Below, in pieces: positions 7,875 to 52,486 of a stretch of 64,000 nt of DNA (position 1 is its first letter; every line of letters starts with the position of its first letter). The position numbers were made by a program, and so were the translations under genes. Where the stretch lies: IMG/VR virus record IMGVR_UViG_3300037780_000034, positions 96,001-160,000 of that record, one strand, 5' to 3'. Origin of the DNA: a virus (lineage: Duplodnaviria; Caudoviricetes). Below the pieces are notes generated by a model. That model made no database searches and was not told the origin of the DNA. It saw nothing but the letters and a program-made list of their open reading frames with translations.

Positions 7875-7903
7875 AACAAATCATCAATTATAGGAGTTAT
7901 AAG

Positions 7904-9349: not shown

Positions 9350-9359
9350 AATGAAGTAA

Positions 9360-9390
9360 GTGGGGCAGGGAAACTTGCCCCACATTTTAT
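9360..9390 (+). terminator. Intrinsic terminator after nadV
   Basis: GTGGGGCAGG-GAAA-CTTGCCCCAC followed by ATTTTAT. Confidence 0.6.
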
Positions 9391-9422
9391 ACCAAAATAA
9401 CAAAATATTGGATAAAATAATT

Positions 9423-9611
9423 ATGAAAATTGAAACTAAAGATTATTATTGGGAATGTGGTGACGGTTGTTGTAGTGAATACGCAACCATTCTTTTTATT
9501 GATGGAAAAGAAATAGAAGATCGTCGCTTTGGTGATACTCGTGACGCATATCGCTATGTGCTTGAAGAAATGTTAGGACACGAAATAGATTACATTTATG
9601 AGGATGAATAA
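9423..9611 (+). CDS. Hypothetical protein
   Basis: Likely ATG at 9423 (track start lies in the terminator). Confidence 0.55.
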   Translation: MKIETKDYYWECGDGCCSEYATILFIDGKEIEDRRFGDTRDAYRYVLEEMLGHEIDYIYEDE

Positions 9612-40811: not shown

Positions 40812-40933
40812 TGCATCGTAGCTCAGAGGTAGAGCAGGTGACTGTGGATGCTAAAGGTCATAGGGTCAGTTCGATTCTGACAGCATCAACCGTAATCACT
40901 TGGTCGCAGGTTCGATCCCTGCCGATGCAGCCA
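40812..40933 (+). tRNA. tRNA-Asn(GTT) interrupted in the anticodon loop by a 47-nt tRNA-minihelix insert (40846-40892)
   Basis: Removing the insert gives GGTGA-CTGTTAA-TCACT; G73 and CCA present. Confidence 0.75.
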
Positions 40934-41014
40934 ATATTTTGTGTAATTTATTGATACAGTTACACAACTTAAAACCCAATCAAATGCGCAGTTTTGGGTC
41001 TGCGCGATATTTAA

Positions 41015-41106
41015 GGAACATTGGCTGAGTGGTCTAAAGCATCGGTTTGCTAAACCGACGAAGGCAAATATGTCTTCCATTGGTTCGAATCCAATATGTT
41101 CCGCCA
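41015..41106 (+). tRNA. tRNA-Ser(GCT)
   Basis: Cloverleaf, long variable arm, CCA. Confidence 0.92.
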
Positions 41107-41125
41107 ATAACGAATATGAAGAATA

Positions 41126-41202
41126 CAGGGTATGGGATAGTCTGGTTAATCTAACGCCCTTGGACGGCGTTGACGGTGGTTCAAATCCACCTACCCTGAC
41201 CA
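41126..41202 (+). tRNA. tRNA-Pro(TGG)
   Basis: ACGCC-CTTGGAC-GGCGT; C1-G72, A73. Confidence 0.92.
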
Positions 41203-41344
41203 TAAATTTCAGAGGGTTAAAACAGCGGATTATGTATGTTTCGTAAAATGAAAACAAAAGTAGTTTAAAATGTAAAGTTTATCTGTAGATAAACCTCTTG
41301 CATTTTTCTACAGAAACCGAAAAAGTCCCTCACTTTAATAACTT

Positions 41345-41420
41345 GCGGGTATAACTCAGTTGGTAGAGTATCTGACTTCCAATCAGAATGTCGTCGGTTC
41401 GAATCCGATTGCCCGCTCCA
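41345..41420 (+). tRNA. tRNA-Gly(TCC)
   Basis: TCTGA-CTTCCAA-TCAGA; U73. Confidence 0.95.
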
Positions 41421-41516
41421 AAATATGTCGGTTCCATTCAGTTGGTTTATTGAAGAACGATACTTCAATTTAGTCTAGTCGTTTAGACAATCGGCTCCAT
41501 TTTTAAACTTTTTTTT

Positions 41517-41645
41517 AGGATCATTTCCGCAATATTTTACTTTGCATCAGAAGCACGTGTTTGCAGGTTCAAGTCCTGCCTCCCCAACCATAATAATTGA
41601 CGGGGAGTAGGCAAATGGTAAAGCCGCGTTAAGTAATATGATCCT
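41517..41645 (+). tRNA. Circularly permuted tRNA (anticodon CAG) in WCMGCAA scaffold
   Basis: 3' part 41544-41590 (ends CCA) precedes 5' part 41601-41629; rejoined stem CGTGC/GCACG. Confidence 0.7.
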
Positions 41646-41756
41646 GTTATATACTACAGGCTAACTTTTGGGGGTTAGCTTGGTGTTACAGAAGTATAGG
41701 AAATCATTCGGAACCAAATAATGCCTATACCATTTTACGGTTCCAGCAAAACACAG

Positions 41757-41785
41757 TTGACAACCGATAGAGAATCAGCTACATT
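41757..41785 (+). promoter_or_regulatory. sigma70-type promoter with GAATC
   Basis: TTGACA-17-TACATT; GAATC at 41772. Confidence 0.7.
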
Positions 41786-41827
41786 ACAGACACTGAAAAT
41801 GAAACCACTAACAAAAGGTGAAACACT

Positions 41828-42280
41828 ATGAAGGGCATTGAAGCCAAATATACTGCTAAAGTAATTGCAAAAATGATCAAACATAATCGTTCAATTGAAC
41901 GCAAACATCAGCGTAAAAGTGAACGTGATTTCTTTGATGATGAAAGCTATGTTATTGCAAACTTTACACATAAAGAAGGAAAGAAACTTTCTTCACAATT
42001 TCGTGCATTTATGATCCATAATGCTTTTAAGAAAAATCGTGGATTTACAAGTGCAGAAGTTGCTTATTTTAACCTTGGTGAAAATTCACTGTCTACTATC
42101 AAAGAGAATAAAGAACTATATTCACGATATATGGATAGGTTTAAACGCCAGCAAAAAGCAATTAACATTGTTCGTCATAAACTTCTTGATCATAATGAAC
42201 GTGAAAGTTTTGAAAACTGGCTTAACACAAATGCAATGAATGAAACTTACTTTGACGAAAATTTCCTTCAACCTGCATAA
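41828..42280 (+). CDS. Hypothetical protein
   Basis: 150-aa ORF behind a promoter. Confidence 0.7.
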   Translation: MKGIEAKYTAKVIAKMIKHNRSIERKHQRKSERDFFDDESYVIANFTHKEGKKLSSQFRAFMIHNAFKKNRGFTSAEVAYFNLGENSLSTIKENKELYSRYMDRFKRQQKAINIVRHKLLDHNERESFENWLNTNAMNETYFDENFLQPA

Positions 42281-42286
42281 TACTGG

Positions 42287-42344
42287 TTGACACTGTTGAA
42301 AATCATTGATATAGTGTCAACAACAACAAAACGCTCTTTGACAA
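42287..42344 (+). promoter_or_regulatory. Internal promoter with second boxA
   Basis: TTGACA-17-TATAGT then CGCTCTTTGACAA at 42332. Confidence 0.65.
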
Positions 42345-42432
42345 TTTAACCATCTTCCCTATGCGAAAGCTATGATGGGATAAAAACAGACTTATTGTGT
42401 AAGATGAAGAATCTGTAAATCGCAATTGGTTG

Positions 42433-42538
42433 TCTGTTTTGAATATGATAGCACCACTTCCGAGTAATCAGATAATAACTGATTATTTCGAGTTAATTAA
42501 TAGTTTGAGCAAACGGATGCTATCATATTCAAAACAGA
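42433..42538 (+). ncRNA. Long-stem ncRNA candidate
   Basis: Perfect 21-bp inverted repeat TCTGTTTTGAATATGATAGCA. Confidence 0.5.
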
Positions 42539-42543
42539 TATAA

Positions 42544-42617
42544 GGCTCTATTGCATTGTGGAATGCAGCGGCTTCTAACCCCGTTTCAAGCAGGTTCGAC
42601 TCCTGTTAGGGCCACCA
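42544..42617 (+). tRNA. Arg-type tRNA body with ambiguous anticodon (CTA in canonical register, TCT in shifted register)
   Basis: GCGGC-TTCTAAC-CCCGT; A20; CCA. Confidence 0.7.
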
Positions 42618-42727
42618 AATAAAACCAAATGGAGAGAAAAATGTTCTAGATTTATATACCACCATAACTTCTATTGATTTAAAGTTTAAAGAAAGACCTT
42701 TACTCAAATATCAATAGGAGAAACAAA

Positions 42728-43108
42728 ATGAGTATTCAATTAAAAATTAAAAATAAACATCTTAGTGAAGAAGCACGAATCATACGTTTTGAAGAAAACA
42801 AAATCAAAAAACACGCTCGTAACGTAAGAGAACGTCAAGGGCACCAAACTGCCGATGATATAATGAAAACTTTTCAGTCACTTAGACATCATCGCAGATG
42901 GGACGTTCGTAACGAAAATCGTGCTACTTTTATTGCCAGAGCCTTCATAGAAGGAAAATCATATAAACAAGTTGAAACCAAACGTAATCCAGAGAATGAA
43001 TATACATTTATAGCGTTTGTGTTGCCAAGAGTGTTGACAATGGTAAACAAGTATGGCAATGTCCAGATAACAAAAGAAGAATTACTCAAATGGTGTAATC
43101 AAGAATAA
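42728..43108 (+). CDS. Hypothetical phage protein
   Basis: LKIKNKHLSEEARIIR...HRRWDVR.E.RA motif. Confidence 0.7.
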   Translation: MSIQLKIKNKHLSEEARIIRFEENKIKKHARNVRERQGHQTADDIMKTFQSLRHHRRWDVRNENRATFIARAFIEGKSYKQVETKRNPENEYTFIAFVLPRVLTMVNKYGNVQITKEELLKWCNQE

Positions 43109-43115
43109 CTAAAAC

Positions 43116-43192
43116 GGAAGCATAGCATAATTGGTTAATGCCCACGTCTCATAAACGTGTTTATCTTGGTTCAAGTCCAAGTGCTTCCACCA
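43116..43192 (+). tRNA. tRNA-Met/Ile2(CAT)
   Basis: CACGT-CTCATAA-ACGTG. Confidence 0.9.
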
Positions 43193-43337
43193 ATATGTTG
43201 AAACTTAATTGTCAGTCTGACGTTTCAATATTAATTAATTAATGACTGGCCAAAGGCTTGATGTGTTAAAAACCTTGTGGTGATGTAATCAAGATAAACC
43301 ACATAAACTCCTTTGTATGAAATGAAATTTCCTCTTT

Positions 43338-43394
43338 AGGATGATTACCGCAAAATTAATAAACTTTTTTTTGGTAAAAGCAGAACATCATCCT
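43338..43394 (+). ncRNA. WCMGCAA-scaffold RNA carrying a bare Gln(TTG)-type anticodon stem-loop
   Basis: AGGATGA/TCATCCT; CTTTT-TTTTGGT-AAAAG. Confidence 0.6.
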
Positions 43395-43407
43395 GATTGT
43401 GTATTGT

Positions 43408-43487
43408 GGGCGAGTGGGCAAATTGGTAAAGTCGGTTCACTCAAAATGAGAGTCATTTTGTCGGTTCGAGTCCGACCTCGCCTACCA
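43408..43487 (+). tRNA. tRNA-Leu(CAA)
   Basis: Loop CTCAAAA, variable arm, CCA. Confidence 0.85.
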
Positions 43488-43572
43488 ATTTTATCTTATG
43501 AGTTAAGATTTGTTTTAATCATTGAAGTCCCTCTACGGGCACCAACAACTATAAACACTAAAATAGAATAAT

Positions 43573-43647
43573 GCGGACATCGTATAAGGTTATTACGCTT
43601 GGCGACCAGCTAAGAAATACAGGTTAGAATCCTGTTGTCCTGCTCCA
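43573..43647 (+). tRNA. Atypical tRNA-Gly-like gene (anticodon ACC, G33, bulged acceptor)
   Basis: CTTGG-CGACCAG-CTAAG; T-loop TTAGAAT. Confidence 0.55.
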
Positions 43648-43655
43648 AATAACTG

Positions 43656-43684
43656 TTGACACTCACCAGAGAATCAACTATAGT
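43656..43684 (+). promoter_or_regulatory. sigma70-type promoter with GAATC
   Basis: TTGACA-17-TATAGT; GAATC at 43671. Confidence 0.75.
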
Positions 43685-43708
43685 AACAGTGTAAGAACTA
43701 ATACTTGT

Positions 43709-43785
43709 GGGCCTGTAGCATAATTGGTTAATGCCCAGTGCTCATAACACTGTCAATCGCGGTTCAAGTCCGTGCGGGCCTACCA
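43709..43785 (+). tRNA. tRNA-Met/Ile2(CAT)
   Basis: CAGTG-CTCATAA-CACTG. Confidence 0.9.
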
Positions 43786-43805
43786 GTATTAGTTTTTGAT
43801 TTTTT

Positions 43806-43863
43806 AGGATGACTTCCGCAAAATTATGCATTTGACCGTTAATCAAAAAAGCAAAATCATCCT
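43806..43863 (+). ncRNA. WCMGCAA-scaffold RNA carrying a bare Asn(GTT) anticodon stem-loop
   Basis: AGGATGA/TCATCCT; TTTGA-CCGTTAA-TCAAA. Confidence 0.6.
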
Positions 43864-43873
43864 GTAATAGAAT

Positions 43874-43967
43874 GGGCGCGTGGCGAAATTGGTTGAAACG
43901 CAAGGCACTTAAAATGCCTCACAGATTAGTGATCACACTGTGGGTTCGAGTCCCACCGCGCCTACCA
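43874..43967 (+). tRNA. tRNA-Leu(TAA)
   Basis: AGGCA-CTTAAAA-TGCCT; long variable arm. Confidence 0.92.
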
Positions 43968-44026
43968 AAATGTAGTAAACACAAAGAAATTTACTTCTAC
44001 TCATAAATAAGTAGAAGGAGAATTAA

Positions 44027-44467
44027 ATGAGTGATTACTTCAAAAATTATATGAACTTAACAAAAGAAAACAGACAAAGACACTTAGATATATCTTCACC
44101 TTGTGAAGAACGTGGTGGGAATAGCACAATATATAGAGGAGTCCTTGCTCAATATTTAAACACTCCTATCCCGATGGGTAGGATAGCAGTTCTGGCTCAC
44201 GCATGTAACAATAATAAATGTTCTAATCCACAGCATTTATATTGGGCGACAGACAGAGAGAATATAGTAGAAGATGGAAAAAAGTTTGGAACTTTTAAGA
44301 GTGTTTGGGAACGAATGGTAGACAAGCACGGTTATGAAGAAGCTTGTAGGCTACAAGCCAACGGTGCCCAATCAAAGGCAGGACAAGGAAACAAAGGTAA
44401 ACGAAAGTCTGAAGAACATAAGCGCAAAATATCCGAATCTTTAAAAATAAAAAATAGAAAAGAATAA
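44027..44467 (+). CDS. HNH homing endonuclease with NUMOD3-like tail
   Basis: HACNNNKCSNPQHLYWAT.REN; KSEEHKRKISES. Confidence 0.75.
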   Translation: MSDYFKNYMNLTKENRQRHLDISSPCEERGGNSTIYRGVLAQYLNTPIPMGRIAVLAHACNNNKCSNPQHLYWATDRENIVEDGKKFGTFKSVWERMVDKHGYEEACRLQANGAQSKAGQGNKGKRKSEEHKRKISESLKIKNRKE

Positions 44468-44538
44468 ATCTTCTAATAATATAAATAATTATAGAAATTT
44501 GCAACCATTATACAACTACCAAAAAGGATTAAAATGTT

Positions 44539-44661
44539 AGGATCATTACCGCAATTTTATTTGCATTTCCAGCCGTAGATGCAGGTGCAATTCCTGCTCA
44601 CCCTACCAATATAAATTATGGGGTGATCGTCTAATAGTAGGACAACGTATAATATGATCCT
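44539..44661 (+). tRNA. Circularly permuted tRNA-Glu(TTC) in WCMGCAA scaffold
   Basis: 3' part 44563-44608, 5' part 44620-44647; rejoined stem ACGGC/GCCGT; Glu-type D arm. Confidence 0.72.
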
Positions 44662-44697
44662 GTTCTTTAAAAAAAAGAAAGTTAATTTAAGTTTTTT

Positions 44698-44815
44698 AGA
44701 TTATGTTCAGCAAACCATATAAATTATATGAAAGCCTATCAACGTTGCCGGAAGGCCCGTATGGCAAACCCAGTTTTCGATTTTCTGGTTCTATAAAAAA
44801 GTAGACACATAATCT
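44698..44815 (+). ncRNA. WCMGCAA-scaffold RNA with long-variable-arm-like and T-arm-like hairpins
   Basis: AGATTATGT/ACATAATCT; TTCAGCAA. Confidence 0.5.
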
Positions 44816-44823
44816 GTAATAAT

Positions 44824-44900
44824 TGCGGGGTAGACTGGAGAGGTACCCAGCACGGTCTCATAAGCCGATCACGGCGGTTCGAATCCGCCCCCCGCAACCA
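44824..44900 (+). tRNA. Initiator-like tRNA-Met(CAT)
   Basis: TGCGGGG/CCCCGCA acceptor; loop CTCATAA. Confidence 0.85.
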
Positions 44901-44985
44901 TTTTTATAAAATGATAATTCCCTTTATTTTTACGAGTTTCCTTTCCGAGTAAAAATATCAAGGTTGAGTTATCATTTTATAAAAA
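44901..44985 (+). ncRNA. Long-stem hairpin ncRNA candidate
   Basis: TTTTTATAAAATGATAATT/AGTTATCATTTTATAAAAA. Confidence 0.45.
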
Positions 44986-45164
44986 TGAGGATATAAATTA
45001 TGGATAAAGAAATACAAGATTTTATAGATTTTTGGAAAGAAAAAGATGTAAAATTACCAAATCCACAAAATTATCCAAAATCTTTTGAATGGTATGTTAC
45101 AATGTGGAAATATCACACAAAATAATATTATAAATACCTATGTAAGTTAACATAGGAGATAATA

Positions 45165-45809
45165 ATGTCATTAATAAGAATTCAACAAATACTAAAAGAT
45201 ATGAACCACGATCCAGGTCCAATTGATGGATTATGGGGAAGCAGAACAAAAGCTGCATTAGAAAGTTTAATACAATGGGAAGGAAAACCAGTAACGGTTA
45301 CTTCCAATTCATCTGATGATGATTTACCTTGGATGATAGAAGGAAAAAAAGTATTTGGGTTTCACGAAGTTAGAAATAATAGTGAATTAAGAAAATGGTT
45401 AAGAAGTGATGGTGCTACTCTTGGTGATCCAAAAGCACTTCCCTGGTGTGGTGATTTTACCGAGACTGCTATAAAAAACTCATTACCAACTGAACCTTTT
45501 ACTGGTAGAATGCTTGAAAATCCATATTGGGCAAGAAATTGGCTTGAATTTGGTCGTGCATCGCCTGCTATATATGGATGCATAGGCGTTTTTAGTAGAG
45601 GCACAGGAGGTCACGTTGGTTTCTTGGTAGGTGAAGATGCAACAGACTATTATGTTTTTGGTGGAAATCAAAGCGATAGTGTTAATATAGTAAGAATAGA
45701 TAAAAAACGTTTACTGGGAACAAGATGGCCATTGACTTACAATATTGTTAATACACCATTACCTAAAAGAGACCCAAAAACTGTAATCAAATCAGTTAAT
45801 GAAATATAA
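45165..45809 (+). CDS. Endolysin-like protein: PG-binding domain plus TIGR02594/NlpC-CHAP-like amidase
   Basis: PGPIDGLWGSRT; PWCG, ARNW, GHVGF, GGNQ; TATAAATA at 45129. Confidence 0.8.
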   Translation: MSLIRIQQILKDMNHDPGPIDGLWGSRTKAALESLIQWEGKPVTVTSNSSDDDLPWMIEGKKVFGFHEVRNNSELRKWLRSDGATLGDPKALPWCGDFTETAIKNSLPTEPFTGRMLENPYWARNWLEFGRASPAIYGCIGVFSRGTGGHVGFLVGEDATDYYVFGGNQSDSVNIVRIDKKRLLGTRWPLTYNIVNTPLPKRDPKTVIKSVNEI

Positions 45810-45818
45810 GGAAAAGTT

Positions 45819-46055
45819 ATGAAAATAGTATTTGCCCAAGGTGCATTTGATGATTTTGATGGAACACAAGAAGAACTTGATAACCTTCTTTCGGAATTAA
45901 AAGAAATGATTGAAAGTGGTTCACTTATGGAAAAAAGTGAACCAGTGGATTTAGACTTATTGCAAGAAGAAAATCCAGAAATATATGAAAAAATTATGAA
46001 GTTTGATAGTTTAGATCAAGATACGTTTGAAAATACTAAAAATAAACTCCATTAA
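45819..46055 (+). CDS. Hypothetical acidic protein
   Basis: FAQGAFDDFDGTQEELD motif. Confidence 0.6.
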   Translation: MKIVFAQGAFDDFDGTQEELDNLLSELKEMIESGSLMEKSEPVDLDLLQEENPEIYEKIMKFDSLDQDTFENTKNKLH

Positions 46056-46059
46056 TTTT

Positions 46060-46138
46060 GGCCCCATCGTCTACGCTGGTGTTAGGATACTCGGCTTTCA
46101 TCCGAGAGAAGTCGGTTCAATTCCGTCTGGGGCTACCA
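46060..46138 (+). tRNA. tRNA-Glu(TTC)
   Basis: CTCGG-CTTTCAT-CCGAG. Confidence 0.9.
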
Positions 46139-46145
46139 AAATAAT

Positions 46146-46231
46146 GTGTCGGTGGGTGAGCGGTTTAAACCACCTGACTGTAAATCAGGCGCTGAAAAGC
46201 AACGCTAGTTCGAATCTAGCCCGACACACCA
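46146..46231 (+). tRNA. tRNA-Tyr(GTA)
   Basis: CCTGA-CTGTAAA-TCAGG; variable arm. Confidence 0.92.
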
Positions 46232-46273
46232 AATATTATGAGTGCAAAGTTACAAGCACTCAAAACAAATCTT

Positions 46274-46350
46274 GTGCGTGTGTAGCTGAATGGTTAAGCG
46301 CAGGATTGCAAATCCTGATTATGTTGGTTCGAGTCCAATCACGCACTCCA
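46274..46350 (+). tRNA. tRNA-Cys(GCA)
   Basis: CAGGA-TTGCAAA-TCCTG; U73. Confidence 0.88.
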
Positions 46351-46389
46351 ATATAGTCTACTCTAATAAATAATAAAAAAGGTAAAAAA

Positions 46390-46560
46390 ATGGAAATATC
46401 TGATAGGATTGAATCTTTAAAAGCAAAACATCGTGAACTTGATAGTAGGATTGAAGTTCTGTATGCTGAAAGAGTAGACGAAAAGTATATAACTTCTCTA
46501 AAAAAAGAAAAGTTAAAGATAAAAGAAGAAATTACTAAGTTACAAAATAGCTTAGTATAA
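46390..46560 (+). CDS. DUF465/YdcH-like small coiled-coil protein (not in ORF track)
   Basis: MEISDRIESLKAKHRELD...LKKEKLKIKEEI. Confidence 0.65.
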   Translation: MEISDRIESLKAKHRELDSRIEVLYAERVDEKYITSLKKEKLKIKEEITKLQNSLV

Positions 46561-46568
46561 AATAATTT

Positions 46569-46652
46569 AGGAATATTTCAGCAAATTTATCTTGGATAAA
46601 ACATTGTTCTCAAAAACAAAGTGAAGTGGTTCAAATCCACATCAATATTCCT
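46569..46652 (+). ncRNA. WCMGCAA-scaffold tRNA mimic (D-like, anticodon-like and T arms; no CCA)
   Basis: AGGAATAT/ATATTCCT; TTGTT-CTCAAA-AACAA; GTGG-TTCAAAT-CCAC. Confidence 0.55.
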
Positions 46653-46663
46653 GACTAATATCT

Positions 46664-46773
46664 TGGAACATTACCGCAACTATAACATAAACAATGGGTT
46701 ACAGGTTCAAATCCTGTCTTTTACAGTTTGTAAAAGTAGTTCAATGGTAGAACAATTGTCAAAAAATGTTCCA
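46664..46773 (+). tRNA. Degenerate circularly permuted tRNA (anticodon CAT) in WCMGCAA scaffold
   Basis: 3' part ~46684-46725, 5-nt linker, 5' part 46730-46759; GTAAAAG/CTTTTAC acceptor; no encoded CCA. Confidence 0.6.
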
Positions 46774-46782
46774 GTATTTTAT

Positions 46783-46856
46783 GGGGGATTAGTTCAATGG
46801 TAGAACAGGTGCTTTACGCGCATCATACAGCAGTTCGATTCTGTTATCCCCTACCA
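46783..46856 (+). tRNA. tRNA-Val(TAC)
   Basis: GGTGC-TTTACGC-GCATC. Confidence 0.9.
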
Positions 46857-46871
46857 ATATTAGGAAAAAAT

Positions 46872-47309
46872 ATGAATAATAAATGGGATTTAAGATTTTT
46901 AGAATTAGCAAAACATATTGCAGAATGGTCAAAAGACCCAAGCACAAAAGTTGGGTGTGTAATAGTAAGACCAGATAAAACTATTGCGTCTGTTGGTTAC
47001 AATGGATTTCCACGTGGTGTTAATGATGAACCAGAAAGATATAATAATCGTGAGATAAAATATCTTATGGTAAAACACGCAGAAGAGAATGCAGTATACA
47101 GTTCAAAAGAATCATTGACTGGATATACGGCGTATGTTACACACTATCCGTGTTCTAGTTGCACAGGAACACTAATACAAAATGGAATAAAAAGAATTGT
47201 AACACAAAAACCAGATGATAGTTTTGCTTCAAGGTTTCGTGATAGTTTTGAATCATCAAAAATAATGATTAATGAAACTGGTATAGAATTAGTTTTAATA
47301 GAAGATTAA
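46872..47309 (+). CDS. dCMP deaminase
   Basis: SKDPSTKVG, GYNGFPRG, HAEEN, PCSSC. Confidence 0.9.
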   Translation: MNNKWDLRFLELAKHIAEWSKDPSTKVGCVIVRPDKTIASVGYNGFPRGVNDEPERYNNREIKYLMVKHAEENAVYSSKESLTGYTAYVTHYPCSSCTGTLIQNGIKRIVTQKPDDSFASRFRDSFESSKIMINETGIELVLIED

Positions 47310-47311
47310 AT

Positions 47312-47396
47312 GGGCTAGTGTTGAAATAGGTAGACAATGCGCACTTAGAATGCGTTGCCGAAAGGCGTGGGGGTTCAAGTCCCTCCTAGCCTACCA
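47312..47396 (+). tRNA. tRNA-Leu(TAG)
   Basis: GCGCA-CTTAGAA-TGCGT; variable arm. Confidence 0.92.
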
Positions 47397-47415
47397 TTAT
47401 TGAAAGGATACAAAA

Positions 47416-47588
47416 TGAAAAACAAAATAAAAACACCTAAACCACGAAATGAATATGCAATTTCTGCAAGGTTTAGAACAGGTGCTGGTCCTATGCAAAA
47501 ATCTAAGAAAGCACAGAGACAACAAGATAAAATTGCTTTAAAGAAAAAAGGTAAAGACTACTTTAACAATAGAGAAACTATTCTTTAA
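47416..47588 (+). CDS. Small basic hypothetical protein
   Basis: KPRN.YA...GAG motif; start after the tRNA. Confidence 0.55.
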
Positions 47589-47735
47589 GTAGTCTTGTTT
47601 TATAATATATGAAAGGATATAATATGTTTACATTAATAGTAGGAATAGTAATTGGTGCTTTCATTGGTTGGAATTTTCCACAACCAGAGTTTGCTAGAAA
47701 TATTCAAAATAAGATAAAAAATATTCTAAAATAAT

Positions 47736-48509
47736 GCCACGGTAGCTCAGTCCGGTAGAGCATACAGGTTTGTAAAATAGTAAATATCTAAAAAGGATAT
47801 TTACTATGATTAGAAATAAAATAGAATGTAAAAAATGTGAAAGATTGATAAGTTTATCAAATCATAAAAGACATACACAATCCTGTAATGGCAAAAAAGT
47901 ATCTTCAAACAAAACTATTGAAGAAAATCATATTGATTGGAAAACAATACAAGAAGATTATGACAATGGATTAACATACCGTGGAATAACAGAAAAATAC
48001 AAAATATGTCAACAATCAATATCAAATGCGAGAAAAAAAGGTCTGTTAAAAACACGTTCTAAATCAGAAGCCTCTAAACTTTATTATAAAAATAATACAC
48101 CAAACATAATGAGCGATGAGGCCAGAAAAAGAATTTCTGAAAAAATGTCCGAACATAATCACGGCGGAAGAAGTAAATGGTTTGAGATAGATGGGAAGAA
48201 AGTCCAAGGAACTTGGGAGCTTAACTTTGCCAAATTTTGCAAAGAGAACAACATAGAATGGCAAAGATGCAAACCTTGGAAATATAAAATGGATAAAAAA
48301 ATAAGAAGCTATACACCAGACTTTTATATTCCAAGCAAAAAATTATTTATAGAAATAAAAGGTCATTGGTGGGGAGATGATAGAAGAAAAATGAACTGTG
48401 TAATAGAACAACATCCTGATAAAAACATTCTTATAATAGAAAAAGAGATATACGAACAGATGCTAGATGGAAAATTAGAATGGTGATTCGAATTCACATC
48501 GTGGCACCA
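47736..48509 (+). pseudogene. tRNA-Thr(TGT)-like gene split by an endonuclease gene
   Basis: 5' part GCCACGG...TTTGTAA (47736-47775); 3' part GTGA-TTCGAAT-TCAC-A-TCGTGGC-A-CCA (~48483-48509). Confidence 0.65.
47806..48486 (+). CDS. PD-(D/E)xK-type (TnsA/DUF559-like) putative homing endonuclease
   Basis: QGTWEL, YTPDFY, IEIKG; N-terminal Zn/HTH region. Confidence 0.7.
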   Translation: MIRNKIECKKCERLISLSNHKRHTQSCNGKKVSSNKTIEENHIDWKTIQEDYDNGLTYRGITEKYKICQQSISNARKKGLLKTRSKSEASKLYYKNNTPNIMSDEARKRISEKMSEHNHGGRSKWFEIDGKKVQGTWELNFAKFCKENNIEWQRCKPWKYKMDKKIRSYTPDFYIPSKKLFIEIKGHWWGDDRRKMNCVIEQHPDKNILIIEKEIYEQMLDGKLEW

Positions 48510-48512
48510 TAG

Positions 48513-48605
48513 TTTTATGATACACTGTCCGCAACAGGTCTTGATGGGGTAGCTTACGAGCAAGCCAAAGTGTAGGTGTAAGTCCTACCGCAGTGTATCA
48601 TAAAA
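48513..48605 (+). ncRNA. WCMGCAA-scaffold RNA with 15-bp stem and T-arm
   Basis: TTTTATGATACACTG/CAGTGTATCATAAAA; TCCGCAA; GTAGG-TGTAAGT-CCTAC. Confidence 0.55.
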
Positions 48606-48615
48606 ATATAAATAT

Positions 48616-48692
48616 TGTTCTGTAGCACAATTGGTTTAGTGCAGGCGACTGATAATCGTCAGATTCAAGTTCAAATCTTGACAGAACAACCA
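48616..48692 (+). tRNA. tRNA-Ile(GAT)
   Basis: GGCGA-CTGATAA-TCGTC. Confidence 0.92.
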
Positions 48693-48701
48693 ACAAATTT
48701 A

Positions 48702-48777
48702 TGGTAGAAGGGAAATTGGCGACCGACCGCACTTTGAATGCGTGTTATTGTAAGTTCGAATCTTACTCTACCAACCA
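48702..48777 (+). tRNA. tRNA-Gln(TTG)
   Basis: CGCA-CTTTGAA-TGCG; U1-A72. Confidence 0.85.
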
Positions 48778-48799
48778 ATATAAAGTAAAAATGAAATAC

Positions 48800-48884
48800 G
48801 GACAAGTGCCCGAGAGGACAAAGGGAACTGACTTTTAATCAGTCGCTATATGCTACGTGGGTTCGAATCCCACCTTGTTCACCA
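48800..48884 (+). tRNA. tRNA with Lys(TTT) anticodon on a Tyr-like type II body
   Basis: ACTGA-CTTTTAA-TCAGT; D arm CCCGAGAGGACAAAGGG; long variable arm. Confidence 0.85.
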
Positions 48885-48962
48885 AAATATGGTCGAATCA
48901 GATTGACATATACAGTCAACTATGCTATTGTATAGTATATTCAATGAAAGAAAGATATTACT

Positions 48963-49409
48963 ATGAAAATTGAATACCGTCAAGGCGATCTATTTAAAAC
49001 AGAGATTAAAACAATTGTTCACGGATGCAATGCGCAAGGTGTTATGGGGTCTGGGGTTGCGAATATAATTCGTGAACAATATCCAGAAGCATATGAGCGT
49101 TATCGTAATGAGTATGAAAAACATAATTATCTAAAGCTTGGTGATATCATATCAGTTCCTTGTAATTACAAGTTTATTGTAAACGCTATTACACAAGAGT
49201 ATTTTGGGCGTGACAATAAACGATATGTTAGCTATGATGCAGTAGATGACGTTATGGTAAAGTTAAATAAATTTTACGATATATACGGTATTTCAGAAAT
49301 TGCTATGCCAAAAATTGGTGCTGGTTTAGGAAATGGTTCTTGGGAAGTGATAGAAGCAATCATAGAGAATCGTCTTGACACCGTGAAACCAGTAGTGTAT
49401 ACTATGTGA
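48963..49409 (+). CDS. Macro domain ADP-ribosylhydrolase-like protein
   Basis: GDLF, HGCNAQGVMGSGVA, MPKIGAGLGNG.W. Confidence 0.88.
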   Translation: MKIEYRQGDLFKTEIKTIVHGCNAQGVMGSGVANIIREQYPEAYERYRNEYEKHNYLKLGDIISVPCNYKFIVNAITQEYFGRDNKRYVSYDAVDDVMVKLNKFYDIYGISEIAMPKIGAGLGNGSWEVIEAIIENRLDTVKPVVYTM

Positions 49410-49420
49410 TATGAAATAAT

Positions 49421-49497
49421 CTCCACGTAGCTCAACTGGACAGAGCGAGTGACTTCTAATCACTAGGTTGAGGGTTCGATTCCTTCCGTGGAGGCCA
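49421..49497 (+). tRNA. tRNA-Arg(TCT)
   Basis: AGTGA-CTTCTAA-TCACT. Confidence 0.93.
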
Positions 49498-49561
49498 TTT
49501 CTTATACTACCTTATACCCTACTAACAGGTATAAATACCTATGAACTAGGAGAATACTATA

Positions 49562-49957
49562 ATGAGCATTTCAAACCAAAAAGGTGATATAGGGGAAGCA
49601 CATTTTGTTTTAAGGGCTACTGAAAAGGGATATTGGACTGGAAAAATGCCACAAGACTGCCCTTATGATTTTGTATTGGATAGAGGAAAAGGATTAGAGC
49701 GTGTTCAGGTAAAATACAGGTCTAGTGCAAAAAAAGGTTCAATACAAATTAATTCCTTTAATTCAAGTCCGCAATCAAATAGAACATATAACGGTTTCGT
49801 TGATCAATTTGCAGTATATAACCCAGAAACATCAGAAGTATATCTTATTCCAGCTAATTTAGTAATGGAATCTGGTGCTTCTATTTTTAGAGTAGAATAT
49901 CCTAAAAATAATCAACTAAAAGGTGTAACTTTTCTTTCTGAATTCAAAGAATGGTAG
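49562..49957 (+). CDS. PD-(D/E)xK endonuclease (intron-associated PDDEXK_5-like)
   Basis: KGDIGE, YDFVLD, RVQVKY; TATAAATA at 49530. Confidence 0.75.
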   Translation: MSISNQKGDIGEAHFVLRATEKGYWTGKMPQDCPYDFVLDRGKGLERVQVKYRSSAKKGSIQINSFNSSPQSNRTYNGFVDQFAVYNPETSEVYLIPANLVMESGASIFRVEYPKNNQLKGVTFLSEFKEW

Positions 49958-49980
49958 TTCGAATCTTACTTGCAGCACCA
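49953..49980 (+). pseudogene. Orphan tRNA 3' fragment (T arm, acceptor strand, CCA) overlapping the endonuclease stop
   Basis: GTAG-TTCGAAT-CTTAC-TTGCAGC-A-CCA. Confidence 0.55.
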
Positions 49981-50096
49981 ATAAAAATATTGTATTGAAC
50001 CCCACTATTCATATGCTGAGTGTTTTAGACCTGACACTGTGAAGCGAATATGCGTTCAATACCTGCTAGGGGAATTGGTCCCTCCTAGTCAGTTTT

Positions 50097-50170
50097 GGCC
50101 CCTTGGTATATGGATATTACGCTCGGCTGTCTACCGGGAAAAACGGGTTTGAGTCCCGTAGGGGTCGCCA
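50097..50170 (+). tRNA. tRNA-Asp(GTC)
   Basis: CTCGG-CTGTCTA-CCGGG; G73. Confidence 0.9.
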
Positions 50171-50171
50171 A

Positions 50172-50575
50172 TATAGACTGTGACGTAATCGGCCCTTGTG
50201 AGGAACGCTCCCGTAACCAGTCGGGTTAAAGTTGCAAACAACCCAGTCTATAAAATAAAGTCCTATGTCCGACTTACCGATTTTGGTATTTTGGCTTAGG
50301 CACCAGTTTGATCTAGATACTTTTATTTTTGGAGCAAGAGTAGTCGTGTGTGATGATAAAAATGAAAGTCGTTTCAATGCTAGACAACATTCGGTTCAAG
50401 GACGTGCGAACCAGTATTATGACACCTGCACGTTGACCCTGAAACCAGTGTGCAGCATTATACGATGGGTAACAGTCTGGAGAGTGACAGACATATATGC
50501 GAAAAGGGTTTTTAGTAGTATGTGGTAATTCTTAAACCCTGAAATATCCATTAAGATCGTCGGTAGGCCACATAT
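50172..50575 (+). ncRNA. ~400-nt structured ncRNA region
   Basis: Several stems (ATAGACTG/CAGTCTAT, GGTTC/GAACC, CTGCAC/GTGCAG, AGGGTTT/AAACCCT) and a possible pseudoknot TATGTGG/CCACATA. Confidence 0.45.
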
Positions 50576-50577
50576 TT

Positions 50578-50652
50578 GGGGGATTGGTGAAATCAGGATC
50601 ACGTAGGTGTTGCATACCTAAATTATCGGGGCAGGTCCGATATCCTCCACCA
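50578..50652 (+). tRNA. tRNA-Ala(TGC) with atypical T-loop
   Basis: G3-U70, A73; TAGGT-GTTGCAT-ACCTA; T-loop GGCAGGT. Confidence 0.8.
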
Positions 50653-50812
50653 TATAAATAAAGGATATGTTATGATTGGTTTAATATTTTTATCATTTAG
50701 TCCATTGTTTTTGATAGCATCAAATGACTATTTTGGTAAAATTTCTTCTATAATTTGTGCTGTTATTGGCATAACCATAATAACTATATCTCTGTTAATG
50801 TAAGGAATAAAA

Positions 50813-51142
50813 ATGTCATATGAAAAACCACTTCCTAAACCATTATATCCGCCAGTTGACCAAGGTTCACTAAAAGCTTTTGAATATTACAAAGAATTTA
50901 TAGAATATCTTGGAGCAAAGCCGGTAAATCATACTGAAATAGAAAATGGTGATACCACAAGTTTAGAACATTTGTTATGGATGTGTAATCATTGTATACC
51001 AAGAATTCGTGATGATGGATTAGGATTTAATGTTTCTAAGTATTCACGATGGTTAGGATACATACAAGGTTGTTTAATTTGTAAAGGTTACACAAGTGTA
51101 GCACAAGAAAGAGACAGAACAAGAAACTTTTTTAATGAATAA
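50813..51142 (+). CDS. Hypothetical phage protein
   Basis: HLLWMC...KYSRWLGYIQG. Confidence 0.65.
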   Translation: MSYEKPLPKPLYPPVDQGSLKAFEYYKEFIEYLGAKPVNHTEIENGDTTSLEHLLWMCNHCIPRIRDDGLGFNVSKYSRWLGYIQGCLICKGYTSVAQERDRTRNFFNE

Positions 51143-51148
51143 TCTTTT

Positions 51149-51367
51149 TGGATCAGTTCAGCAAACAATATTTCCGTGAAAAGGACCGTGACGGTGGTGC
51201 AAATCCGCCCTTCCCCGCCACAGATACACTATGACAACATAGACGGGTTAATCGCCGTAGGAACGAAGCAGTTTCCAAACCAACGATAGGAAGAGTTTGT
51301 CGTCTTCTGTAGTGTATCTTTGACGGGGAAGTAGCTCAGTTAGTAGAGCAGGTAAAAAGTTGATCCA
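51149..51367 (+). tRNA. Circularly permuted tRNA-Phe(GAA) in WCMGCAA scaffold; linker holds another hairpin RNA
   Basis: 3' part 51174-51220, 5' part 51325-51353; rejoined 76 nt with stem GGTCC/GGACC. Confidence 0.75.
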
Positions 51368-51368
51368 G

Positions 51369-51656
51369 TTAATATAATAAAGAATCGTCTAGCCATCTTA
51401 TTACAGCGTGATCCAAAACAAGTTTAGCATCTTCAACTGATATATTAAACCATTCTCCACTTATTCTTTTGTAAGATATCTCACTATGTATTTTACTTTC
51501 CATAATTCTTGTTTTTTCATCTGGAATTTCAACATAATAATGAAGATAAAGTTTATCTGGATTTCCAGTTTGTAGGTTCTTTAGCCTACGATGTGGGTCT
51601 TTTGCAAACCCAATCTTTTGACGATTTTCATTGTTACCTATAATATAAATATACAT
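51369..51656 (-). CDS. GIY-YIG/T5orf172-family protein
   Basis: YIYII...KIGFAKDP.RRLK.LQTGNP...GEWF. Confidence 0.8.
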   Translation of the reverse strand: MYIYIIGNNENRQKIGFAKDPHRRLKNLQTGNPDKLYLHYYVEIPDEKTRIMESKIHSEISYKRISGEWFNISVEDAKLVLDHAVIRWLDDSLLY

Positions 51657-51680
51657 ATAACTATTTATGGAGATTAAAAA

Positions 51681-51854
51681 ATGGACTCACCGTTTAAAAC
51701 ACAATTTGACTTACCGCGTGCTGGATTAATTAGACAAGAATTAATTACATATGAAGATCGTGGTGGGGTAATATTTAAAATCACTACTATAAGAAATTTT
51801 CATAACGGCGACTATATAGATTCACAAACTATTGTCCCTATCGTAGAAAAATAA
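51681..51854 (+). CDS. Small hypothetical protein (not in ORF track)
   Basis: MDSPFKTQFDLPRAGLIRQELITYE...; GGAG RBS. Confidence 0.6.
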   Translation: MDSPFKTQFDLPRAGLIRQELITYEDRGGVIFKITTIRNFHNGDYIDSQTIVPIVEK

Positions 51855-51858
51855 CATT

Positions 51859-51944
51859 GCTGAAGTCCCATAGCGGCGATTGGAAAGGTTTTGTAATCCT
51901 TCGGTTAACACCCATCGTGAGTTCGAGTCTCACCTTCAGCACCA
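51859..51944 (+). tRNA. tRNA-Thr(TGT) with long variable arm
   Basis: GCTGAAG/CTTCAGC; loop TTTGTAA. Confidence 0.8.
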
Positions 51945-51967
51945 ATATACAATACAAAAATTATTTT

Positions 51968-52044
51968 CCCGACTTAGTGTTTAGCGGTTAGCACGGATGA
52001 TTGTGGATCATCAAGGCCAGATTCGAATTCTGGGGTCGGGACCA
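51968..52044 (+). tRNA. tRNA-His(GTG) lacking G-1, with A73
   Basis: GATGA-TTGTGGA-TCATC; T precedes C1. Confidence 0.9.
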
Positions 52045-52052
52045 AATATTAC

Positions 52053-52144
52053 GGAAGTATGGCAGAGTCTGGTTTATTGCATCTGCTTTGAACGCAGAAG
52101 AACGTGAAAGCGTTCCGTGGGTTCGAATCCTACTGCTTCCGCCA
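52053..52144 (+). tRNA. tRNA-Ser(TGA)
   Basis: TCTGC-TTTGAAC-GCAGA; long variable arm; G73. Confidence 0.92.
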
Positions 52145-52152
52145 AAATTTAT

Positions 52153-52241
52153 AGGGGTGCGCCAACGTTGGAGTGTTGGGCTGGTCTCCAAAACCAGTGT
52201 TTGAAAAAACTTAGTGAGTTCGAATCTCATCACCTTTGCCA
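52153..52241 (+). tRNA. tRNA-Trp(CCA) with long variable arm
   Basis: CTGGT-CTCCAAA-ACCAG; G73. Confidence 0.85.
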
Positions 52242-52261
52242 ATATAAAACTCAGGAAAATT

Positions 52262-52486
52262 ATGAAACAAAGATTACCATATGCAACAAGAAATCTTAAA
52301 AACTTTATAACCGCAGTATATCCACTTCTATTAGATGATAGATATATTGATATGACTGAAAGTCAATTTGTTAGTGAAGTTATGAAAAATAGTGGAGGAT
52401 CACTAAATCCAAAAACTATAATCTCAGTATATAATTCACTTATGAGTGATGCAGGGTTGGAGCCATTATATGAAAATCATAAATAA
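52262..52486 (+). CDS. Hypothetical protein
   Basis: MKNSGGSLNP motif; start after the tRNA. Confidence 0.55.
   Translation: MKQRLPYATRNLKNFITAVYPLLLDDRYIDMTESQFVSEVMKNSGGSLNPKTIISVYNSLMSDAGLEPLYENHK

What the first reader, a model, noticed from the sequence alone, without database searches (positions are those of the whole stretch)
51149..51367. Circularly permuted tRNA-Phe(GAA), the only Phe tRNA in the window
Seen: positions 30-76 (51174-51220, ending GCCA) come before positions 1-29 (51325-51353). Joining them gives exactly 76 nt: GGGGAAG/CTTCCCC acceptor, GCTC/GAGC D stem, perfect GGTCC-GTGAAAA-GGACC anticodon arm and a T-arm with TGCAAAT. The ~100-nt linker holds its own long hairpin (AGATACACTA/TAGTGTATCT). 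Colinear tRNAs here cover 18 amino acids; only Phe and Asn are missing, and both occur in non-colinear form. Inference: this completes the set and argues for function rather than decay.
Basis: partly seen in the sequence, partly recalled or inferred. Interest (0 to 1): 0.9.

Follow-up and report, generated by a model that had tools for sequence, protein, structure and literature searches.

The report
Permuted tRNA-Phe look-alike on Y-RNA handle
The swapped-halves tRNA-Phe is really in the sequence, but it is most likely one of nine small phage RNAs that mount tRNA parts on a shared stem, probably for a Ro60-like protein, and not a gene for a working phenylalanine tRNA.

Summary
Observation confirmed. 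Joining 51325-51353 to 51174-51220 gives a 76-nt cloverleaf that ARAGORN calls tRNA-Phe(GAA). The 317.7-kb phage record has no colinear tRNA-Phe.

The unit is one of nine same-strand elements in the tRNA array. All share a handle: an 8-10 bp closing stem followed by unpaired WCMGCAA. Their payloads differ: bare anticodon-like hairpins, sealed tRNA mimics, and three open permuted tRNAs with CCA.

The same handle fills the tRNA arrays of related jumbo phages, including Cronobacter phage GAP32 and Pectobacterium phage CBB. It is about ten times enriched in the first kb downstream of a Ro60-like gene in 80 phage loci. This genome encodes that protein (top 13 PDB fold matches are all Ro60).

The joined Phe has G73, G32, G55 and no GG in the D loop. 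All 14 colinear phage tRNA-Phe have A73, Y32, U55 and GG, and UGC at T-loop positions 54-56 occurs in 0 of 372 colinear tRNAs. There is no BHB motif, splicing endonuclease or RtcB.

Most likely it is a Y-RNA-like tRNA mimic that matures without ligation, perhaps cut by RNase P into two paired pieces as M. smegmatis YrlA is. No RNA data were available. This scan has already met the handle family in other phage genomes.

The parts
51149..51157 (+). Handle, 5' strand UGGAUCAGU; pairs with 51359-51367 (7 Watson-Crick pairs plus G-U and U-G)
   Evidence: MFE fold; handle scan; aligned to handle positions of model R1
51158..51164 (+). Unpaired handle motif UCAGCAA (family consensus WCMGCAA here, ACAGCAA in relatives)
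   Evidence: Present in all nine units, in relatives and next to Ro60-like genes
51165..51173 (+). Spacer ACAAUAUUU; its UUU can pair with AAA of the trailer right at the junction
   Evidence: Sequence; an analogous second stem is seen in units 1 and 4
51174..51220 (+). tRNA positions 30-76: CC, loop GUGAAAA (anticodon GAA at 51178-51180), GGACC, variable GUGAC, T arm GGUGG-UGCAAAU-CCGCC, acceptor 3' strand CUUCCCC, G73, CCA
51221..51324 (+). 104-nt linker between CCA and G1, with a 10-11 bp hairpin (51222-51231 with 51310-51319) enclosing small hairpins. Its stem 8-mer GAUACACU/AGUGUAUC equals the closing stem of unit 8 (48518-48600)
51325..51353 (+). tRNA positions 1-29: acceptor 5' strand GGGGAAG, UA, D arm GCUC-AGUUAGUA-GAGC, A26, GGU
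51354..51358 (+). A-rich trailer AAAAA, typical of the 3' side of handle units
51359..51368 (+). Handle, 3' strand GUUGAUCCA plus terminal G (family end ...UCCWG)

Best explanation
The stretch 51149-51368 encodes one small non-coding RNA of a multicopy phage family. Each member has a handle (an 8-10 bp closing stem plus unpaired WCMGCAA/ACAGCAA) that carries a tRNA-derived payload. Here the payload is a circularly permuted derivative of tRNA-Phe, with the RNA's ends inside the anticodon stem at 29/30.

The handle is inferred to be the binding site of the phage's Ro60-like protein (475 aa, G000 85209-86636). That would make this a Y-RNA-like RNP in which the tRNA-shaped module acts as the effector, decoy or tether.

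The RNA probably matures without ligation. RNase P is inferred to cut 5' of G1 (51325), and the linker is trimmed back to the encoded G73-CCA (51217-51220). This would leave two base-paired pieces: about 72 nt (51149-51220) and about 44 nt (51325-51368). M. smegmatis YrlA and two-piece tmRNAs mature this way.

Shown here: the anatomy, family membership, the linkage of handles to Ro60-like genes, the Ro60 fold, and the departures from decoding tRNA-Phe. Inferred: binding to the Ro60-like protein, the RNase P cut, and the decoy or tether role.
For: Nine handle units lie on the + strand in window 41001-52000, against 0.44 expected in shuffles (maximum 2) and 0 on the - strand. Their payloads range from bare hairpins to sealed mimics. 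Unit 7 hits Rfam YrlA at 31.5 bits.

Model R1, built without units 2, 3, 5, 6, 7 and 9, finds unit 7 at E 2e-12, units 2, 3 and 6 at E about 1e-4 to 1e-3, and the 5' two-thirds of unit 9 at 25.6 bits.

The same handle occurs many times in the tRNA arrays of relatives L001-L007 and L009, including GAP32 and CBB, where it is unannotated. All five relatives tested encode the Ro60-like protein. In L001 and L002 the handle units directly flank that gene.

In 80 loci fetched with the Ro60-like protein, same-strand handles occur at 0.48 per kb in the first kb downstream, about 0.05 per kb elsewhere, and only once on the opposite strand in that bin.

The protein carries PF11443 + PF25043 and matches phrog_850 'RNA-binding protein'. 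Its AF2 model (pLDDT 78) has Ro60/TROVE as all 13 top PDB matches, E 2e-8.

Unit 9 has G73, G32, G55 and no GG in the D loop, whereas all 14 colinear phage tRNA-Phe have A73, Y32, U55 and GG. UGC at T-loop positions 54-56 occurs in 0 of 372 colinear tRNAs, but in 3 of 6 open permuted units: W4, W9 and L085.

Precedents: M. smegmatis YrlA is cut by RNase P and carries CCA in vivo, and its halves stay Rsr-bound (PMC4201824). Thermus phage phiLo Ro60 binds phage Y-like RNAs (PMC12135203). Bas63 gp130 is Ro60-like and lies upstream of 'tRNA' genes suspected to be Y RNAs (10.1101/2024.10.10.617714).
Against: There is no RNA data and no binding data. In this genome the Ro60-like gene lies about 60 kb from unit 9. 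Pfam TROVE does not match the protein, and the handle motif differs from the YrlA motif GNCGAAN0-1G. Unit 9 itself has no Rfam YrlA hit.

A pure mimic does not obviously need an exact 5-bp anticodon stem, a 7-nt loop with U33 and R37, or an encoded N73-CCA. Yet all six open units found keep both the loop and CCA. The genome lacks any other tRNA-Phe, although relatives have one. The phage also encodes an Rnl1-type RNA ligase, so a joining route cannot be excluded.
Confidence: 0.62

Rival explanations
1. True permuted tRNA gene. The precursor is cut before C30 and after U29, the ends are ligated (for example by phage Pnk/Rnl1), and RNase P plus 3' trimming remove the linker. The product is a covalent 76-nt tRNA-Phe(GAA) that supplies the missing Phe decoder.
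For: The halves are exactly complementary and the cloverleaf is clean. G73-CCA is encoded, as in all 22 colinear tRNA genes. No other tRNA-Phe exists in the record, while relatives have a colinear one. An Rnl1 ligase is present. Three units in the window share the 29/30 break.
Against: The same handle flanks payloads that cannot become tRNAs. There is no BHB: trailer AAAAA cannot pair with CCGUG. No tRNA splicing endonuclease or RtcB is encoded, and no ribozyme or intron family matched in 38-58 kb. The flanks are coding, so there is no room for a ribozyme. The break position differs in L085, at 26/27. G73, G32, G55 and A18 are never seen in colinear phage tRNA-Phe. Sibling unit 4 is redundant with colinear tRNA-Glu and has C37. 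Sibling unit 1 is a Leu anticodon on a class-I body. Rnl1 is split into two ORFs.
Confidence: 0.12
2. Two-piece working tRNA. After the RNase P cut the two pieces stay paired, are charged by PheRS, and act in translation or in another aminoacyl-transfer reaction with the handle still attached.
For: An anticodon loop and CCA co-occur in all six open units found. Two-piece tmRNA and CCA-tailed M. smegmatis YrlA are precedents (tmRNA is from my own knowledge).
Against: G73 replaces the A73 identity element seen in 14 of 14 colinear tRNA-Phe. By general knowledge of ribosome-tRNA contacts (inference), a helix leaving the anticodon stem at 29/30 should clash with the decoding and P sites. L002's Phe-like unit has G33.
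Confidence: 0.06
3. Structured RNA of the handle family, but the handle's partner is not the Ro60-like protein. It could be another protein or a processing signal, and the tRNA module serves another role.
For: The Ro60-like gene is 60 kb away here. The motif differs from known Ro60 sites. No binding data exist.
Against: Handles show strong positional linkage to the Ro60-like gene across 80 loci and in the nearest relatives.
Confidence: 0.12
4. Decaying remnant of a rearranged tRNA-Phe gene with no function.
For: Several near-universal tRNA positions are changed. A homing-endonuclease-like ORF abuts the unit. The long linker looks like an insertion.
Against: All helices are intact and the two halves fit with no gap or overlap. 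The handle matches the family. A diverged variant in another metagenome keeps the handle, the anticodon arm and an ACCA end. The G55/no-GG signature recurs in unit 4 and in L085.
Confidence: 0.08

Closest known systems
YrlA-type bacterial and phage Y RNAs bound by Rsr/Ro60 (Rfam RF02553; Chen et al. 2014, PMC4201824)
   Same: A terminal 5'/3' stem with a conserved unpaired motif on the 5' side. A tRNA-like module in permuted order (T arm, acceptor, D arm). A Ro60-type protein encoded by the same genome. M. smegmatis YrlA is cut by RNase P at the 7-bp acceptor and carries CCA, with both halves staying bound.
   Different: The motif is WCMGCAA, not GNCGAAN0-1G. Unit 9 has no Rfam hit, and unit 7 scores only 31.5 bits against a threshold of 69. 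This unit keeps a full anticodon loop, encodes G73-CCA, and has a 104-nt structured linker. The protein is a diverged DUF2828/DUF7788 form not matched by Pfam TROVE. The family has nine copies, interleaved with tRNA genes.
Thermus phage phiLo Ro60 with Yrl1/Yrl2 (PMC12135203) and Bas63 gp130 (bioRxiv 10.1101/2024.10.10.617714)
   Same: A phage-encoded Ro60-fold protein with phage-encoded small RNAs that have a stem-bulge-stem layout. gp130 lies just upstream of 'tRNA' genes that the authors suspect are Y RNAs, and it counters a host defence (ppl).
   Different: phiLo Yrls carry a CGAA motif and are not described as tRNA mimics. For Bas63 no RNA was defined. Neither paper describes an ACAGCAA handle or open, CCA-bearing permuted tRNAs.
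Circularly permuted nuclear tRNA genes of Cyanidioschyzon merolae and other algae; Thermofilum pendens (Soma et al. 2007, recalled from memory; permuted tRNAs appear in papers listed)
   Same: The 3' half precedes the 5' half with a linker between the acceptor ends, and the joined product is a normal cloverleaf.
   Different: In those genes the leader and trailer form a BHB motif. It is cut by the splicing endonuclease and ligated through a circular intermediate. Here there is no BHB, no such endonuclease, and a bacteriophage context, and the flanks are a family handle shared with non-tRNA payloads.
Two-piece tmRNA from circularly permuted ssrA genes (alpha-proteobacteria, some cyanobacteria; from my own knowledge)
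   Same: A permuted gene for a tRNA-like RNA in bacteria. It matures by excision of the segment between the CCA end and the 5' end, without ligation, into two base-paired pieces.
   Different: tmRNA has a tag reading frame, SmpB partnership and Ala charging; none of these applies here.

Membership tests
Decoding tRNA-Phe (bacterial or phage) | Cloverleaf with anticodon GAA in a 7-nt loop | tested here: met
   Met only after joining the halves in silico
Decoding tRNA-Phe (bacterial or phage) | Discriminator A73, a major PheRS identity element | tested here: not met
   G73 at 51217; 14 of 14 colinear phage tRNA-Phe have A73
Decoding tRNA-Phe (bacterial or phage) | Canonical elbow: U54-U55-C56 and G18-G19; pyrimidine at 32 | tested here: not met
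   T loop UGCAAAU, D loop AGUUAGUA, G32. UGC at 54-56 occurs in 0 of 372 colinear tRNAs; 361 of 372 have GG
Decoding tRNA-Phe (bacterial or phage) | A contiguous mature RNA | not testable with these tools
   No RNA run holds the stretch; only DNA contigs could be laid
Archaeal/algal permuted or split tRNA genes | BHB motif (3-nt bulge, 4-bp helix, 3-nt bulge) at the junction of leader and trailer | tested here: not met
   Trailer AAAAAGU cannot form the 4-bp helix with CCGUG. Leader and trailer instead form a 9-bp closing stem 5-18 nt away from the junction
Archaeal/algal permuted or split tRNA genes | tRNA splicing endonuclease and RtcB-type ligase available | tested here: not met
   PF01974 and PF01139 are absent from the 318-kb record, with positive controls. 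The host is unknown, so this covers the phage only
YrlA (Rfam RF02553) | Score at or above the gathering threshold (69 bits) | tested here: not met
   No hit on unit 9; sibling unit 7 scores 31.5 bits and unit 1 21.4 bits
YrlA (Rfam RF02553) | GNCGAAN0-1G motif near the 5' end | tested here: not met
   UCAGCAA stands in that place
YrlA (Rfam RF02553) | tRNA-like module in the order T arm, acceptor, D arm, closed by a 5'/3' stem | tested here: met
YrlA (Rfam RF02553) | Ro60 ortholog encoded nearby (within about 4 kb, same strand) | tested here: inconclusive
   A Ro60-fold protein is present on the same strand but about 60 kb away. In relatives L001, L002 and L085 the units do flank the gene
ACAGCAA-handle RNAs linked to phage Ro60-like (DUF2828/DUF7788) proteins (unnamed; seen before in this scan) | 8-10 bp closing stem with unpaired NCNGCAA directly 3' of its 5' strand | tested here: met
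   UGGAUCAGU, UCAGCAA ... GUUGAUCCA
ACAGCAA-handle RNAs linked to phage Ro60-like (DUF2828/DUF7788) proteins (unnamed; seen before in this scan) | Multicopy, same strand as the tRNA genes, far above chance | tested here: met
   9 observed against 0.44 expected, and 0 on the other strand
ACAGCAA-handle RNAs linked to phage Ro60-like (DUF2828/DUF7788) proteins (unnamed; seen before in this scan) | Genome encodes the Ro60-like protein, and handles cluster at that gene across phages | tested here: met
ACAGCAA-handle RNAs linked to phage Ro60-like (DUF2828/DUF7788) proteins (unnamed; seen before in this scan) | Physical binding of the handle by the protein | not testable with these tools
   Needs RIP or EMSA

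The most novel reading that the evidence does not exclude
The open subclass of handle RNAs consists of permuted tRNAs that keep an anticodon loop and an encoded N73-CCA: units 1, 4 and 9 here, two in L002 and one in L085. They may be matured by RNase P into chargeable tRNA bodies. Either they are then cut and ligated into true tRNAs by the phage RNA-repair enzymes, or they act as aminoacylated two-piece tRNA mimics held on a Ro60-like ring. In the second case they could serve as decoys or adaptors against tRNA-targeting host defences. The first case would be the first permuted tRNA gene expressed in a bacterial virus.
Probability: 0.15. Interest if true: 0.9.

Novelty: new variant of a known kind. 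Interest (0 to 1): 0.55.

Why it matters
If the best reading holds, large phages encode whole arrays of Y-RNA-like RNAs that present tRNA parts on one handle for a Ro60-like protein. These arrays hide among, and are mistaken for, tRNA genes. That bears on how phage 'tRNA' counts are read. It also bears on the role of a very widespread phage protein: more than 7,900 relatives scored E <= 1e-10, and one member is reported to counter a host defence. The open members, with an anticodon loop and CCA, are the most tRNA-like Y-type RNAs I know of. They raise a testable question: is a Y RNA charged, or used as bait for tRNA-directed enzymes? Cultured relatives (GAP32, CBB) carry the same unannotated RNAs, so the family can be tested at the bench.

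Tried and rejected
RNA evidence: no RNA holder was listed for 50800-51700. The four runs laid were all DNA contigs and showed no joints.

Orthologue hunt: an exact 31-mer of the anticodon/T region found nothing in viral contigs. Loci fetched with the upstream 109-aa ORF from viral and metagenome contigs are not syntenic for unit 9. blastn of 50600-52300 against phage records hit only tRNAs.

Pfam TROVE (PF05731) found nothing in the genome. I would have wrongly concluded 'no Ro60' without the fold test. A sequence search of PDB chains was also blank.

A MAFFT alignment of 16 units was structurally consistent only in the T arm, so no alignment-wide covariation count was made. Model R1 aligns only the 5' two-thirds of unit 9, because of the 104-nt linker.

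An alignment of the linker with unit 8 shows shared stem 8-mers only. The tally of anticodon triplets shown on handle units was too contaminated by loose handle calls to use. The promoter and terminator scan gave nothing above shuffles. A literature search for DUF2828 was uninformative.

Full report
**1. The observation**

The window is G000:C1:96001-160000 of a 317.7-kb virus record with 31% GC, from a pond metagenome.
- 51174-51220 reads CC-GUGAAAA-GGACC-GUGAC-GGUGG-UGCAAAU-CCGCC-CUUCCCC-G-CCA.
- 51325-51353 reads GGGGAAG-UA-GCUC-AGUUAGUA-GAGC-A-GGU.

Joined in the order 5' half then 3' half, they make 76 nt. ARAGORN calls this tRNA-Phe(gaa), and RNAfold folds it as a cloverleaf. The 104-nt linker holds a 10-11 bp hairpin.

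I scanned both strands of the genome for the pattern T arm + acceptor 3' strand ... acceptor 5' strand. Apart from artefacts of normal tRNAs, this recovered only this unit and one at 46663-46774. No colinear tRNA-Phe is found by ARAGORN or by Infernal with RF00005. The record is about 85% complete. The claim that only Phe and Asn are missing is not exact, because no tRNA-Ala was found either.

**2. What surrounds it**

Leader and trailer pair as UGGAUCAGU (51149-51157) with GUUGAUCCA (51359-51367), and UCAGCAA follows the 5' strand. The same layout recurs nine times on the + strand between 41.5 and 51.4 kb: an 8-10 bp closing stem of the type UAGGA.../...UCCUG, then unpaired WCMGCAA. Shuffles give 0.44 on average (maximum 2), and the minus strand has none. 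The payloads differ:
- Short hairpins, one with an Asn-like loop CCGUUAA (units 2 and 3).
- T-arm-like pieces (units 6 and 8), and another fold (unit 5).
- A sealed tRNA mimic with no anticodon loop and no CCA (unit 7). It hits Rfam YrlA at 31.5 bits, below the threshold of 69.
- Three open permuted tRNAs broken at 29/30 with N73-CCA: unit 1 (Leu CAG on a class-I body), unit 4 (Glu-like UUC with C37) and unit 9 (Phe).

A covariance model built from five open units, without unit 9, finds unit 7 at E 2e-12 and units 2, 3 and 6 at E about 1e-4 to 1e-3. It also finds the handle, motif, anticodon hairpin, T arm, acceptor strand and CCA of unit 9 at 25.6 bits. The long linker spoils the rest of that alignment.

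**3. Relatives**

Loci fetched with the neighbouring 109-aa ORF come from jumbo phages whose tRNA arrays are full of the same handle, mostly with ACAGCAA, always on the tRNA strand. L006 is Cronobacter phage GAP32 and L005 is Pectobacterium phage CBB. Their records annotate none of these RNAs.

Further open, CCA-bearing permuted units were found:
- L002 5223-5345: Arg ACG, with A-CCA.
- L002 7912-8034: Phe-like loop UGGAAAA, C-CCA, and a linker of only AU.
- L085 11731-11855: Asn GUU, G-CCA, with the break at 26/27.

Sealed units are more common. A metagenome run holds a diverged variant of unit 9. It has handle GGAUCAU, motif ACAGCAA, the same anticodon arm, a T stem kept through changed bases, another acceptor strand, and an ACCA end.

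**4. The protein partner**

Pfam TROVE finds nothing in the genome. A first-reader note pointed to an ORF 9.4 kb before the window, and I tested it. L011:7209-8636 (475 aa) carries PF11443 + PF25043 and matches phrog_850 'RNA-binding protein'. Its AlphaFold model (pLDDT 78, pTM 0.73) has Ro60/TROVE structures as all 13 top PDB matches, at E down to 2e-8 and TM about 0.6.

The family is very large: 7,972 of the 8,000 candidates scored had E <= 1e-10. I fetched 80 phage loci with this protein. Same-strand handles occur at 0.48 per kb in the first kb downstream of the gene, against about 0.05 per kb elsewhere. Only one lies on the other strand in that bin. All five relatives tested encode the protein. 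In L001 the handle units lie just upstream of it, and in L002 just downstream, including the open Arg unit. The open Asn unit of L085 lies about 300 nt downstream of the gene.

**5. Is it a decoding tRNA-Phe?**

All 22 colinear tRNAs of the window encode CCA, have U54-U55, and have GG in the D loop. Among 372 distinct colinear tRNAs in all held loci, positions 54-56 are never UGC, and 361 have GG.

All 14 colinear phage tRNA-Phe have A73, a pyrimidine at 32 and U55. Unit 9 has G73, G32, G55 (UGCAAAU) and AGUUAGUA with no GG. The G55/no-GG pair recurs in unit 4 and in L085 (UGCAAUU with AAUAGUA). It is therefore a conserved signature of this subclass and not random decay.

There is no BHB motif, since trailer AAAAA cannot pair with CCGUG. 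The phage has no tRNA splicing endonuclease and no RtcB. No ribozyme or intron family matches, and the flanks are coding. An Rnl1-type ligase exists but is split into two ORFs, so a joining route is not excluded.

**6. Mechanism**

The literature gives a direct precedent. YrlA RNAs are tRNA mimics in permuted order on a Ro60-binding stem. M. smegmatis YrlA, which has a 7-bp acceptor, is cut by RNase P and carries CCA in vivo, and both halves stay bound to Rsr (PMC4201824). Phage Ro60 proteins bind phage Y-like RNAs (PMC12135203). Bas63 gp130, which is Ro60-like, counters the Ppl defence and lies upstream of suspected Y RNAs. A subset of jumbo phages was already known to carry TROVE proteins (PMC7824862).

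I therefore read unit 9 as a Y-RNA-like RNA. The handle binds the Ro60-like protein (inferred). The payload is a tRNA-Phe-derived body with its anticodon loop exposed. RNase P probably opens the acceptor at G1, and the linker is trimmed to CCA (inferred). No ligation is needed. What the tRNA body then binds is unknown; candidates are a synthetase, a modification enzyme or a tRNA-directed defence nuclease.

**7. Verdict**

The 'set-completing tRNA' interpretation is only partly supported. The feature is a new variant of a known kind, the Y-RNA tRNA mimics.

This scan has already met the handle family in at least 27 other genomes. The added value here has three parts: the open, CCA-bearing, anticodon-bearing subclass; its G55/no-GG signature; and the test against colinear tRNA-Phe. 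The spliced-tRNA reading keeps about 12% and would be remarkable if true.

Noticed in passing
window 40812-40933: tRNA-Asn(GUU)-like gene with a 47-nt insert inside the anticodon loop. Rfam tRNA scores 54.5 bits over 119 nt; ARAGORN calls it Thr(cgt) with an intron.
   Followed up: partly
window 52151-52241: A 91-nt tRNA-like gene with loop CUCCAAA (Trp CCA), a long extra arm and a GCCA end. ARAGORN cannot name it; Rfam gives tRNA-Sec 35.7 bits (below threshold) and tRNA 28 bits.
   Followed up: partly
window 43573-43643: tRNA-like sequence (Rfam tRNA 33.4 bits) with an odd anticodon loop CGACCAG, T loop UUAGAAU and no CCA. It may be another mimic without a handle.
   Followed up: no
window 42544-42617: tRNA with anticodon CUA (amber-reading), called tRNA-Pyl by ARAGORN. 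L085 and L092 also carry one.
   Followed up: no
whole genome G000: No tRNA-Ala was found by ARAGORN or Infernal, so the colinear set lacks Ala as well as Phe and an uninterrupted Asn.
   Followed up: yes
window 51369-51656 (-): A 95-aa MUG113/T5orf172 (GIY-YIG-like) ORF ends exactly at the 3' end of unit 9. Inside it, UGAUCCAAAA (51409-51418) is a perfect 10-bp complement of UUUUGGAUCA (51146-51155), an alternative partner for the handle's 5' strand.
   Followed up: partly
window 51222-51319 and 48518-48600: The linker hairpin of unit 9 and the closing stem of unit 8 share the same 8-mers GAUACACU/AGUGUAUC. The linker may be a nested, motif-less former unit; its interior is not alignable with unit 8.
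   Followed up: partly
window 44538-44662; window 51149-51368; L085 11731-11855: Shared signature: T loop UGCAAxU (G55) with a D loop ending AGUA and no GG. Never seen in 372 colinear phage tRNAs; it may be a covarying change of the G18-U55 elbow contact.
   Followed up: yes
window 50171-50670: About 500 nt after tRNA-Asp without a convincing ORF and without any Rfam hit.
   Followed up: no
L011 5092-6232 (G000 83092-84232): Rnl1-type RNA ligase split into two overlapping ORFs (PF09511 in the first, a weak T4_Rnl1_C match in the second), 1 kb upstream of the Ro60-like gene.
   Followed up: partly
L001 14671-14771: A handle unit encloses a colinear tRNA-Arg(UCU)-like body, which ARAGORN calls a tRNA gene. 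Some annotated phage 'tRNAs' may therefore be handle RNAs.
   Followed up: partly
L006 (GAP32) 7662-9468; L005 (CBB): Cultured phages GAP32 and CBB carry many handle RNAs between annotated tRNA genes. Their GenBank records list only tRNAs and hypothetical proteins there.
   Followed up: yes
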